DNA of 64,000 nucleotides from Escherichia coli (GCF_003334255.1 NZ_QOWU01000017.1); one strand, 5' to 3'. Positions 57,456 to 58,698 are shown, counted from the first letter of the stretch. Numbers and translations: made by a program. Notes: generated by a model not told the origin, from the sequence alone.

Positions 57456-57656
57456 TGAACCCCTCCAGACAGAAAAGACAAAACTTCCTTAAAGCTAACC
57501 CGTTGCTACTGAAACGACAAGCGACAGCGGGCTGAATGGTGGTTAAAACGTCATACAGGAATCCTCTGAAAGCGGAGCCGTTTCGTTCACGGGCTTGAAA
57601 AAGCGCCCAATGTATTCCAGGCTTATCTAACACGCTGATAAACAAGAGGACGGAAT

Positions 57657-57995
57657 ATGAACAAGAATATGGCAGGAATTCTGAGTGCAGCGGCGGTATT
57701 AACCATGCTGGCGGGTTGTACGGCTTATGATCGTACCAAAGACCAGTTTGTACAGCCTGTGGTGAAAGACGTCAAAAAAGGCATGAGCCGGGCGCAGGTT
57801 GCACAAATTGCGGGTAAACCTTCGTCTGAAGTGAGCATGATCCATGCTCGCGGTACTTGCCAGACCTACATCCTGGGTCAACGTGATGGTAAAGCAGAAA
57901 CCTACTTTGTCGCGTTAGATGATACCGGACATGTCATCAACTCCGGTTATCAGACCTGTGCTGAATACGACACTGATCCACAGGCTGCGAAGTAA
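57657..57995 (+). CDS. osmE: osmotically inducible lipoprotein OsmE (112 aa)
   Basis: ORF track; lipobox LAGC. Confidence 0.9.
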
Positions 57996-58026
57996 TCAAT
58001 TCGTCTGAAAGCTTGAGTAACAACGG

Positions 58027-58053
58027 AAACCGGCCATTGCGCCGGTTTTTTTT
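58027..58053 (+). terminator. rho-independent terminator after osmE
   Basis: hairpin aaaccggc-cattgc-gccggttt followed by tttttt. Confidence 0.7.
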
Positions 58054-58095
58054 GGCCTGAGTTCTTAATTATCTTCGCGAATTATTTGCCCGAAA

Positions 58096-58111
58096 TGTGA
58101 AGAGGGTCATA
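58096..58111. promoter_or_regulatory. CRP-like site in the chb operon control region
   Basis: TGTGA-agaggg-TCATA, close to the TGTGA-N6-TCACA consensus; an adjacent palindromic taattatcttcgcgaattattt (58066..58088) resembles a NagC-type operator. Confidence 0.45.
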
Positions 58112-58293
58112 ACCACAGGTCAAGGAGAAACAATTTATAAGGTCAAAGAAATACTATTGCTCAGGTCTATACCGTATACTCCTTTCAGCCACAAAAAAAG
58201 TCATGTTGGTTTCGCAAGTTACCCAGAGCATGGAAGCAGGTTAAGGCTTGCGGAGTGTCTGGCTGACAGATAATCGTCGATGAGGGCAGTTTT

Positions 58294-58614
58294 ATGGAAA
58301 AGAAACACATTTATCTGTTTTGTTCTGCGGGCATGTCTACCTCTTTACTGGTATCAAAAATGCGCGCACAGGCAGAAAAATATGAAGTTCCGGTCATTAT
58401 TGAAGCATTTCCGGAAACACTGGCTGGTGAAAAAGGTCAGAATGCCGATGTCGTGTTATTAGGGCCGCAGATTGCTTATATGTTGCCCGAAATCCAGCGT
58501 TTGTTACCCAACAAACCGGTTGAAGTAATTGACTCGCTGCTTTATGGCAAAGTCGATGGTTTAGGCGTGCTTAAGGCTGCGGTTGCAGCGATTAAAAAAG
58601 CCGCAGCAAATTAA
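58294..58614 (+). CDS. chbB: PTS chitobiose/cellobiose-family IIB component (106 aa)
   Basis: ORF track; active-site Cys near N-terminus ([10 protein letters not shown]). Confidence 0.95.
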
Positions 58615-58698
58615 TTTATTTTAAATTTTCCCGTCAAAGAGTTATTTCATAAATCAATACCGCAATATTTAAATTGCGGTTTTTAAGGGTATTTTTCT

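What the first reader, a model, noticed from the sequence alone, without database searches (positions are those of the whole stretch)
57996..58293. chb operon control region and intact chbBCARFG
The region upstream of chbB holds a CRP-like site and a palindromic taattatcttcgcgaattattt element resembling a NagC-type operator. All six chb genes are intact. In K-12 this operon is recalled as cryptic for cellobiose but active for chitobiose, so regulator alleles here determine the phenotype.
Basis: partly seen in the sequence, partly recalled or inferred. Interest (0 to 1): 0.3.

Follow-up and report, generated by a model that had tools for sequence, protein, structure and literature searches.

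The report
Known E. coli chitobiose operon promoter
This is the ordinary, already well-studied control region and six genes of the E. coli chitobiose (chb) operon. It is base-for-base identical to wild-type K-12 in the promoter and in the regulator gene, so it is expected to behave like K-12: inducible by chitobiose and silent for cellobiose.

Summary
Window 57996-58293 is the osmE-chbB intergenic region of E. coli and matches K-12 MG1655 at 298 of 298 bases. osmE, chbB, chbC, chbA, chbR and chbG have no nucleotide differences. chbF has three missense differences.

That operator is also the best NagC-matrix hit in the whole 64-kb window. The CRP site is TGTGAagagggTCATA (58096-58111).

- tandem ChbR-type repeats (58117-58134 and 58140-58157);
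- a -10 TATACT (58175-58180) with no -35;
- a probable start at A58187;
- a weak proximal NagC site over the start;
- the osmE terminator.

Eighty orthologous loci keep this layout with fixed spacing.

There is no IS element and no chbR change, so no cellobiose-positive allele is present. nagC lies outside the window.

Novelty: already known. Interest is low.

Side notes:
- a rare ChbF P368L allele, found in 8 of 5,414 genomes that match the probe;
- a conserved hairpin in the chbB leader whose function is unknown;
- the known ChiX decoy in the chbB-chbC spacer;
- an IS186 end at the window's left edge.

The parts
57657..57995 (+). osmE coding sequence (upstream neighbour, same strand)
   Evidence: 112-aa ORF; 0 nt differences from K-12 osmE b1739.
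58025..58053 (+). osmE intrinsic terminator: a 10-bp GC-rich stem with a 6-nt loop, followed by a U-run. It insulates chbBp from osmE read-through.
   Evidence: Folds at -14 kcal/mol, z = -2.2. The hairpin plus T-run is kept in Enterobacteriaceae orthologues. The simple terminator scan did not list it. Its function is inferred.
58064..58086 (.). Distal NagC operator of chbBp, centred at 58075 (about -112).
   Evidence: Identical to the published 'chbB distal' NagC site (PMC3098098 Table 1). Top leave-one-out NagC-matrix hit in the window, 16.3 bits. Kept at 28.5 bp (27.5 in two loci) from the CRP centre in the Enterobacteriaceae orthologues other than Kosakonia, scoring 13-20 bits.
58093..58114 (.). 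CRP(CAP)-cAMP site; core TGTGAagagggTCATA 58096-58111, centre 58103.5 (about -83.5)
   Evidence: One mismatch from the core consensus. TGTGA and TCA are invariant in 18 genera. The CRP centre lies 71.5 bp from the start of the -10 in nearly all loci scored. CAP is named as a regulator in PMC13267602.
58117..58134 (+). ChbR (AraC-family) half-site, repeat 1: AGGTCAAGGAGAAACAAT (about -70 to -53)
   Evidence: GTCAA..AGA.ACAAT is invariant from E. coli to Proteus and Aeromonas and sits 56 bp from the -10 in nearly all loci. The assignment to ChbR rests on my recollection of Plumbridge & Pellegrini 2004, which is not held in the library.
58140..58157 (+). ChbR half-site, repeat 2: AGGTCAAAGAAATACTAT (about -47 to -30). 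It takes the place of a -35 element.
   Evidence: 13 of 18 bases match repeat 1, offset by 23 bp (read). Only GAAnTA is conserved beyond Escherichia, Salmonella and Citrobacter. The repeat finder did not report the pair.
58175..58180 (+). -10 hexamer TATACT of chbBp; there is no recognisable -35
   Evidence: CGTATACT is invariant or nearly so in 18 genera. The consensus promoter scan finds no full sigma-70 promoter on this strand, as expected for an activator-dependent promoter.
58187..58187 (+). Probable transcription start (A, 7 nt after the -10), equal to K-12 coordinate 1821726
   Evidence: A58187 is an invariant column in 18 genera. The position is inferred (plus or minus 1 nt) and was not measured here.
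58179..58202 (.). Proximal, weak NagC operator overlapping the start site; partner of the distal site for looping
   Evidence: In Escherichia, Salmonella and Citrobacter the best NagC-like 23-mer lies exactly 115 bp from the distal site, scoring mostly 5-9.8 bits and as low as 1.2. In the window the score is only -0.2 bits at 116 bp, because E. coli proper has a 1-bp deletion here. Occupancy by NagC in K-12 is from memory of Plumbridge & Pellegrini 2004.
58218..58267 (+). Conserved hairpin in the 107-nt chbB leader; function unknown
   Evidence: -19 kcal/mol, z = -2.3. 98% of cells are paired in 24 sequences, with 2 pairs showing compensatory change. The leader is 78-84% identical to Salmonella and Citrobacter, against 66-72% at chbB third codon positions. 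No Rfam match.
58282..58286 (+). Shine-Dalgarno GAGGG of chbB, 7 nt before the ATG
   Evidence: Read directly; GAGG is conserved in the orthologues.
58294..58614 (+). chbB, PTS enzyme IIB
   Evidence: Identical to K-12; NCBIfam NF007796 equivalog, 226 bits against a cut-off of 157.
58630..58650 (+). ChiX sRNA decoy site in the chbB-chbC spacer (CCCGTCAAAGAG..ATTTCAT)
   Evidence: Complementary to K-12 ChiX CTCTTTGACGGG and ATGAAAT; duplex -36 kcal/mol. The decoy role is described in PMC4098024 and PMC7815308.
58659..58685 (+). Hairpin plus U-run after the ChiX site in the chbB-chbC spacer
   Evidence: -10.5 kcal/mol, z = -3.5. The scan flagged the same stem on the minus strand.
58699..60057 (+). 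chbC, PTS enzyme IIC
   Evidence: Identical to K-12; NF007634 equivalog, 972 bits.
60108..60458 (+). chbA, PTS enzyme IIA
   Evidence: Identical to K-12; NF007768 equivalog.
60466..61308 (+). chbR, AraC-family dual regulator; wild-type allele
   Evidence: 0 nt differences from K-12 b1735; NF007633 equivalog, 585 bits.
61413..62765 (+). chbF, GH4 (monoacetyl)chitobiose-6-phosphate hydrolase / 6-phospho-beta-glucosidase. Differs from K-12 at A46 (K-12 has P), V212 (K-12 has I) and L368 (K-12 has P).
   Evidence: L368 is derived and rare: 8 of 5,414 matching genomes carry the exact 61-mer. E = 6e-149 to PDB 5c3m and 1s6y; residue 368 lies in a loop where Geobacillus has a gap.
62778..63527 (+). 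chbG, chitooligosaccharide monodeacetylase
   Evidence: Identical to K-12; NF002559 equivalog, 400 bits.

Best explanation
The interval is the wild-type chbB promoter-operator region of E. coli, followed by an intact chbBCARFG operon.

Repressed state. NagC occupies a strong distal operator (58064-58086) and a weak proximal operator over the start site (about 58179-58202), roughly 115 bp apart. Together with inducer-free ChbR bound to two tandem repeats (58117-58157), this keeps a -35-less promoter (-10 at 58175-58180) shut, probably through a DNA loop.

Induced state. Chitobiose enters through ChbBCA as chitobiose-6-P. ChbG removes one acetyl group, and the monoacetyl product turns ChbR into an activator. 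ChbF then hydrolyses that product. The GlcNAc-6-P formed downstream releases NagC. cAMP-CRP at 58096-58111 co-activates.

Cellobiose. It supplies neither signal, so the operon stays silent unless an IS element lands upstream or nagC and chbR mutate. None of the cis or chbR changes is present here.

What is shown here: sequence identity to K-12, identity of the palindrome to the published operator, and conservation and fixed spacing of all elements. What is inferred or taken from the literature: protein occupancy, looping, the exact start site and the phenotype.
For: - The control region matches K-12 at 298/298 bases, and chbB, chbC, chbA, chbR and chbG have 0 differences.
- The whole window is colinear with K-12 at 99.98% identity.
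- The distal operator equals the published 'chbB distal' NagC site (PMC3098098) and is the top NagC-matrix hit in the window.
- The phylogenetic footprint in 18 genera and 80 loci shows invariant TGTGA/TCA, GTCAA..AGA.ACAAT and GTATACT, with fixed spacings of 28.5, 71.5 and 56 bp. A proximal NagC-like site lies 115 bp from the distal one in the closest genera.
- No full sigma-70 consensus promoter is found, which fits dependence on an activator.
- Literature: NagC and ChbR both repress, and two signals are needed (PMC3551598). Monoacetylchitobiose-6-P is the ChbR inducer and the ChbF substrate (PMC9402603). CAP, NagC and ChbR control the operon, and Cel+ arises by upstream insertions or by chbR mutation (PMC13267602; PMC4488073).
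- Five of the six proteins pass NCBIfam equivalog cut-offs.
Against: - Nothing contradicts this reading.
- The primary footprinting paper (Plumbridge & Pellegrini 2004) and the Cel+ allele papers (Parker & Hall 1990; Kachroo et al. 2007) are not held in the library. The ChbR-site assignment, the occupancy of the proximal NagC site and the start site therefore rest on my memory plus conservation.
- The proximal site scores at background level in the window (-0.2 bits, rank 494).
- The CRP motif alone is not statistically unusual.
- The effect of ChbF P368L is unknown.
- nagC is outside the window.
Confidence: 0.95

Rival explanations
1. The locus carries a cellobiose-positive (activated) allele: an IS insertion upstream of the promoter, an operator mutation, or a chbR substitution that lets ChbR respond to cellobiose.
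For: Such alleles exist (PMC13267602; PMC4488073). IS elements do hit this locus in other strains.
Against: The control region and chbR are identical at every base to Cel- wild-type K-12, and the intergenic length is unchanged at 298 bp. The IS1 events seen in other genomes disrupt chbC or delete the promoter and chbB; they do not activate the operon.
Confidence: 0.02
2. The palindrome is a chance AT-rich inverted repeat, or the site of a different regulator such as the NagC paralogue Mlc, rather than a NagC operator.
For: NagC and Mlc recognise similar AT-rich 23-bp sites (PMC4288165). No inverted repeat was reported by the repeat finder.
Against: It matches the curated NagC operator list exactly. 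It is the best NagC-matrix hit in 64 kb even when left out of the training set. It is conserved at a fixed distance from the CRP site across the Enterobacteriaceae orthologues other than Kosakonia. A central CG with flanking TTATTT/AATTATT is typical of the listed NagC sites.
Confidence: 0.02
3. The operon is intact only in appearance: the rare ChbF P368L substitution weakens or abolishes the hydrolase, so this strain is impaired for chitobiose and for any evolved cellobiose use.
For: L368 is derived; all seven other E. coli alleles sampled, and K-12, have P. It is rare, at 8 of 5,414 matching genomes. Three of the 14 SNPs that separate this window from K-12 fall in chbF, and all three are nonsynonymous.
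Against: Residue 368 lies in a loop that is variable among GH4 enzymes; Geobacillus has a gap there. The reading frame is intact. Several independent isolates share the allele, so it is not obviously deleterious.
Confidence: 0.08
4. Besides the known DNA operators, the chbB leader (58187-58293) holds an undescribed cis-acting RNA element, the hairpin 58218-58267, that adds post-transcriptional control such as mRNA stability, processing, or protein or sRNA binding.
For: The leader is as conserved as the operator block and more conserved than synonymous sites. The hairpin has z = -2.3. 98% of cells pair, with two compensatory changes. Leaders of the more distant genera have unrelated sequences, some of which also look able to form hairpins by eye. 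No paper or Rfam family covers it.
Against: The full leader folds no better than shuffles (z = -0.54). Covariation rests on two single events among closely related sequences. Conservation could instead reflect DNA-level sites or translation-initiation constraints.
Confidence: 0.2

Closest known systems
chbBp regulatory region and chbBCARFG (formerly celABCDF) operon of E. coli K-12 MG1655 (b1738-b1733)
   Same: Identical sequence across the whole 298-bp control region and in chbB, chbC, chbA, chbR and chbG. Same gene order and the same neighbours, osmE and katE.
   Different: Three ChbF residues: A46 (K-12 has P), V212 (K-12 has I) and L368 (K-12 has P). At 46 and 212 the window has the allele seen in other lineages, whereas K-12 has lineage-specific P46 and I212. 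At 368 the window has a rare derived L.
NagC two-operator loop at nagE-nagBACD (and glmUS, chiP, galP)
   Same: 23-bp AT-rich operators with a central CG. A strong site is paired with a weaker one about 100 bp away, and GlcNAc-6-P acts as inducer (operator list in PMC3098098).
   Different: At chb, NagC needs a second, operon-encoded regulator (ChbR) as co-repressor, and the promoter also needs ChbR plus CRP for activation (PMC3551598).
araBAD promoter (AraC plus CRP, tandem direct-repeat half-sites replacing the -35)
   Same: An AraC-family dual regulator is bound to tandem direct repeats abutting the -35 position. A CRP site lies just upstream. Repression involves a distant site.
   Different: At chb, the distant operators are bound by a different protein (NagC, ROK family) rather than by the AraC-type protein itself. 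This comparison is from general knowledge and was not tested here.
ChiX (MicM/SroB) sRNA decoy in the chbB-chbC spacer
   Same: The 12-nt and 7-nt stretches complementary to ChiX are present unchanged, as described in PMC4098024 and PMC7815308.
   Different: None.

Membership tests
E. coli chbBp control region (NagC/ChbR/CRP-regulated) | Distal NagC operator CTTAATTATCTTCGCGAATTATT upstream of chbB | tested here: met
   Exact match at 58064-58086 to the published site; top matrix hit in the window.
E. coli chbBp control region (NagC/ChbR/CRP-regulated) | CRP site between the distal NagC operator and the ChbR sites | tested here: met
   TGTGAagagggTCATA at 58096-58111; invariant core and fixed spacing in the orthologues.
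E. coli chbBp control region (NagC/ChbR/CRP-regulated) | Tandem ChbR direct repeats abutting the -35 position | tested here: inconclusive
   Repeats at 58117-58134 and 58140-58157 match at 13 of 18 bases, and repeat 1 is invariant across genera.
E. coli chbBp control region (NagC/ChbR/CRP-regulated) | Second (proximal) NagC operator overlapping the transcription start | tested here: inconclusive
   A site at the right distance is clear in sister genera, scoring mostly 5-9.8 bits at 115 bp. It is at background score in the window (-0.2 bits).
E. coli chbBp control region (NagC/ChbR/CRP-regulated) | Sequence identity with the experimentally characterised K-12 region | tested here: met
   298/298.
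E. coli chbBp control region (NagC/ChbR/CRP-regulated) | Actual occupancy by NagC, ChbR and CRP, and induction by chitobiose | not testable with these tools
   Needs footprinting or ChIP and reporter assays.
chbBCARFG operon (PTS-IIB, IIC, IIA, AraC-type regulator, GH4 hydrolase, YdjC-type deacetylase) | All six genes present, in order, full length, each matching its family model | tested here: met
   ORF lengths equal those of K-12. NCBIfam equivalogs are passed for ChbB, ChbC, ChbA, ChbR and ChbG. ChbF matches GH4 6-phospho-beta-glucosidase structures at 6e-149.
Cellobiose-positive (Cel+) chb alleles | IS element in the region upstream of chbBp, or an amino-acid change in ChbR | tested here: not met
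   No insertion, and the control region and chbR show 0 differences from Cel- K-12.
Cellobiose-positive (Cel+) chb alleles | Loss-of-function nagC allele | not testable with these tools
   nagC is not in the window, which is colinear with K-12 1.816-1.880 Mb.

The most novel reading that the evidence does not exclude
The 107-nt chbB leader contains an undescribed, selectively maintained RNA hairpin (58218-58267). It is specific to the Escherichia-Salmonella-Citrobacter clade and would add a post-transcriptional layer (mRNA stability, processing, or a protein or sRNA docking site) to an operon thought to be controlled only by NagC, ChbR and CRP at the DNA level and by ChiX at the chbB-chbC spacer.
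Probability: 0.2. Interest if true: 0.35.

Novelty: already known. Interest (0 to 1): 0.08.

Why it matters
It matters little as a discovery. The region is a textbook case of three-factor control (NagC, ChbR, CRP) and of a 'cryptic' operon, and here it is the unaltered wild-type K-12 sequence.

The practical value is a firm genotype call. The strain should use chitobiose and should be cellobiose-negative, while still able to mutate to Cel+.

The comparative footprint made here is a useful independent confirmation of the published architecture. It shows fixed spacing of the NagC, CRP, ChbR and -10 elements across Enterobacterales. It also flags two small open points: the conserved leader hairpin, and the 1-bp deletion that weakens the proximal NagC operator in E. 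coli proper.

Tried and rejected
- Primary papers. I tried to read Plumbridge & Pellegrini 2004, Kachroo 2007, Parker & Hall 1990, El Qaidi & Plumbridge 2008 and Verma & Mahadevan 2012. None is held, so exact published coordinates for the ChbR sites, the proximal NagC site and the start site could not be quoted.
- Consensus promoter and terminator scan. It found no plus-strand promoter, as expected for an activator-dependent promoter. It also missed the osmE terminator, which folding shows clearly.
- Rfam scan of 57600-60200 at E <= 1. No hits.
- Whole-leader fold. Not better than shuffles.
- The repeat finder. It reported neither the ChbR repeats nor the NagC palindrome, only a 13-nt AATTAT repeat inside and next to the operator.
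- Mini-ORF ATGGAAGCAGGTTAA in the leader. Rejected: the start codon is lost in the C. amalonaticus group and the stop is lost in the C. werkmanii group.
- IS1 copies in best-matching genomes as possible natural Cel+ activations. Rejected: they interrupt chbC or delete the promoter and chbB.
- NagC-matrix hits inside chbF (61796-61818 and 61407-61429). Treated as chance and not pursued.

Full report
**What is in the sequence.**
Window 57996-58293 is the complete 298-bp spacer between the osmE stop codon (57995) and the chbB start codon (58294). Six ORFs of 106, 452, 116, 280, 450 and 249 aa follow on the plus strand. A megablast of 57600-63600 against 5,426 complete E. coli genomes hits every one of them. 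It is a perfect match to a few human isolates (G1/2, G6/7, G8, cM8a), and the annotation there reads osmE, chbB, chbC, chbA, chbR, celF/chbF, chbG.

Compared with K-12 MG1655, the spacer is 298/298 identical. osmE, chbB, chbC, chbA, chbR and chbG have no nucleotide differences. chbF has three differences, all nonsynonymous. Window positions 77-64000 are colinear with K-12 1,879,837-1,815,913 at 99.98% identity, with 14 SNPs and 1 indel. Everything published on the K-12 chb control region therefore applies directly to this sequence.

It sits inside CTTAATTATCTTCGCGAATTATT (58064-58086), which FITBAR Table 1 lists verbatim as the known NagC operator 'chbB distal'. That list was compiled from El Qaidi & Plumbridge 2008 and J. 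Plumbridge (PMC3098098). The genome position in that paper's Table 2, 1819873 in the older K-12 numbering, converts to the same bases.

I built a symmetrised matrix from the nine other published NagC operators, leaving the chb site out. This site is then the best hit in the entire window, at 16.3 bits against 13.3 for the runner-up.

The CRP-like site is TGTGAagagggTCATA at 58096-58111. One-mismatch matches to TGTGAN6TCACA occur 5 times in the window against 1.75 expected. The motif alone therefore proves little, and its support comes from conservation, described next.

**Anatomy from a phylogenetic footprint.**
A scan of species-representative genomes with ChbB returned 80 orthologous loci, from Escherichia to Proteus and Aeromonas. 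BLAST of the upstream regions shows that the only block shared by all of them maps to window positions of about 58063-58153.

An 18-genus alignment shows the following invariant or near-invariant elements:
- TTATTT...CGCGAATTATTTG, the NagC distal operator (Enterobacteriaceae only);
- AATGTGA...TCA, the CRP site;
- GGTCAAnGAGAGACAATT, repeat 1;
- GAAnTA, the core of repeat 2;
- CGTATACT, the -10;
- an invariant A seven bases after the -10 (58187), which I take as the start site, plus or minus 1 nt.

The spacings are rigid. The CRP centre lies 71.5 bp from the -10 and repeat 1 lies 56 bp from the -10 in nearly all scorable loci. The distal NagC centre lies 28.5 bp from the CRP centre in nearly all the Enterobacteriaceae loci; it is 27.5 bp in two, and Kosakonia has no such site.

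In Escherichia, Salmonella and Citrobacter the best NagC-like 23-mer near the start lies exactly 115 bp from the distal operator. It scores about 5 bits in most of these loci, 1.2 to 4.2 in a few, and 9.8 in the C. amalonaticus group. In the window the equivalent site (58179-58202) scores only -0.2 bits. The reason is that E. coli proper has lost one base in its centre (CAGCCA-CAAAAAAAG), a deletion shared by all five diverse E. coli strains I fetched but absent from the other Escherichia lineages sampled (E. albertii, E. whittamii and three divergent isolates, two of them deposited as E. coli).

There is no -35 and no full consensus sigma-70 promoter on this strand, which fits a promoter that depends on activators. 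Upstream, 58025-58053 is the osmE terminator (-14 kcal/mol).

**How it works.**
The mechanism below comes from the literature and from inference; the positions were established here.

- NagC represses the operon. [quoted passage not shown] Two signals are needed for induction: one to lift NagC and one to make ChbR an activator (PMC3551598).
- ChbG deacetylates chitobiose-6-P to monoacetylchitobiose-6-P, which is both the ChbR inducer and the ChbF substrate (PMC9402603).
- CAP is the third regulator (PMC13267602).
- From memory of Plumbridge & Pellegrini 2004, which is not held in the library: NagC occupies two operators about 115 bp apart, the start site lies within the downstream one, and ChbR binds the direct repeats between the CAP site and the promoter. 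The footprint above matches that layout element by element.

With the start at 58187, the centres fall at about the following positions:
- NagC distal operator: -112;
- CRP site: -83.5;
- ChbR repeats: -70 to -30;
- NagC proximal operator: about +4.

**The cellobiose question.**
Cellobiose use arises by insertions upstream of the start site that reduce ChbR and NagC binding, or by chbR mutations that let ChbR respond to cellobiose, together with nagC mutations (PMC13267602; PMC4488073). The control region and chbR are identical to the Cel- reference and the spacer length is unchanged. The window therefore carries the cryptic wild-type state. nagC lies elsewhere in the genome and cannot be judged.

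Across complete genomes the control region is present in 5,425 of 5,426 and is contiguous in 5,395. The IS1 events I inspected in other strains inactivate the operon rather than activate it: one interrupts chbC, and another deletes the promoter, chbB and the start of chbC.

**Gene content.**
ChbB, ChbC, ChbA, ChbR and ChbG pass their NCBIfam equivalog cut-offs end to end. ChbF matches solved GH4 6-phospho-beta-glucosidases at E = 6e-149. 'Intact' is therefore correct.

The three ChbF differences split as follows. P46 and I212 are the K-12-side peculiarities: exact 61-mers occur in 722 and 354 genomes respectively, the latter largely laboratory K-12 derivatives. L368 is the window-side change. 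All seven other alleles sampled, and K-12, have P, and only 8 of the 5,414 genomes that match the probe share the window's 61-mer. Residue 368 lies in a loop where the Geobacillus enzyme has a gap, so an effect on function is possible but not expected. Three of 14 SNPs falling in 2% of the aligned length, all nonsynonymous, is unusual (binomial P of about 0.003, my calculation).

**Other features.**
- The chbB-chbC spacer holds the known ChiX decoy. CCCGTCAAAGAG and ATTTCAT (58630-58650) are complementary to K-12 ChiX (PMC4098024; PMC7815308). A hairpin with a U-run follows at 58659-58685.
- The 107-nt chbB leader is as conserved as the operator block. It is 78-84% identical to Salmonella and Citrobacter and 95% to E. 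albertii. The neutral proxies are lower: 66-72% and 79% at chbB third codon positions, and 62-69% in the spacer upstream of the operators.
- RNAalifold places a hairpin at 58218-58267. It has -19 kcal/mol and z = -2.3 on its own. 98% of cells are paired in 24 sequences, and two pairs show compensatory change.
- Against this, the whole leader folds no better than shuffles, the sequences are close relatives, and no Rfam family or paper covers it. I regard it as a lead, not a finding.

**Verdict.**
The object is the already well-characterised chb operon control region in its wild-type form. Novelty: already known. Interest: low.

Noticed in passing
window 61413-62765 (chbF); SNPs at 61548, 62046, 62515: Three of the 14 SNPs separating the whole window from K-12 fall in chbF, and all are nonsynonymous (K-12 to window: P46A, I212V, P368L). 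L368 is a rare derived allele, found in 8 of 5,414 matching genomes. K-12's I212 is largely confined to laboratory K-12 derivatives (354 genomes), and its P46 is found in 722 genomes.
   Followed up: partly
window 58218-58267 (within the chbB leader 58187-58293): A conserved leader hairpin. The leader is as conserved as the operators and more conserved than synonymous sites in Escherichia, Salmonella and Citrobacter. 98% of cells are paired, with two compensatory changes. There is no Rfam family and no literature on it, and its function is unknown.
   Followed up: partly
window 58192/58193 (proximal NagC operator): E. coli proper has a 1-bp deletion (CAGCCA-CAAAAAAAG) relative to other Escherichia lineages, Salmonella and Citrobacter. 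This drops the NagC-matrix score of the proximal operator from about 5 bits to about 0.
   Followed up: partly
L060, L063-L065, L067, L069 (Proteus spp.), upstream of chbB: Proteus lacks the enterobacterial distal NagC site. It has a strong NagC-like 23-mer (18.7-19.5 bits, CAAATTTyGTGACGTGAAAGAAC) 41.5 bp from the CRP centre instead of 28.5 bp. The operator appears to be relocated or independently acquired.
   Followed up: no
window 58630-58685 (chbB-chbC spacer): The known ChiX sRNA decoy site (12 + 7 nt complementary to K-12 ChiX), followed by a hairpin with a U-run.
   Followed up: yes
window 1-76: The window starts inside the terminal 76 nt of an IS186/IS421 element inserted in yeaR. The junction is at K-12 coordinate 1879837, where MG1655 has no insertion. 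The same junction is found in 255 complete genomes, including ML35.
   Followed up: partly
L002 (strain F829) 1300-3434; L091 (strain NCCP 13717) 2616-3385: In other E. coli strains IS1 inactivates the operon. One copy is inserted in chbC. Another is associated with deletion of the promoter, chbB and the 5' part of chbC, with the breakpoint at window position 58061, just upstream of the distal NagC operator.
   Followed up: partly
window 47877 (astC-xthA intergenic); also 4741 (nimR), 9436 (cdgI), 40251 (ynjE), 42435 (ynjC), 63919 (katE): The remaining differences from K-12 are one 1-bp intergenic deletion and five further missense SNPs: NimR I135T, CdgI P32S, YnjE L66P, YnjC A90S and KatE I710V. 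None was examined further.
   Followed up: no
window 61796-61818 and 61407-61429: Two moderate NagC-matrix hits (12.5 and 9.3 bits), one inside chbF and one at its start. They are probably chance matches.
   Followed up: no
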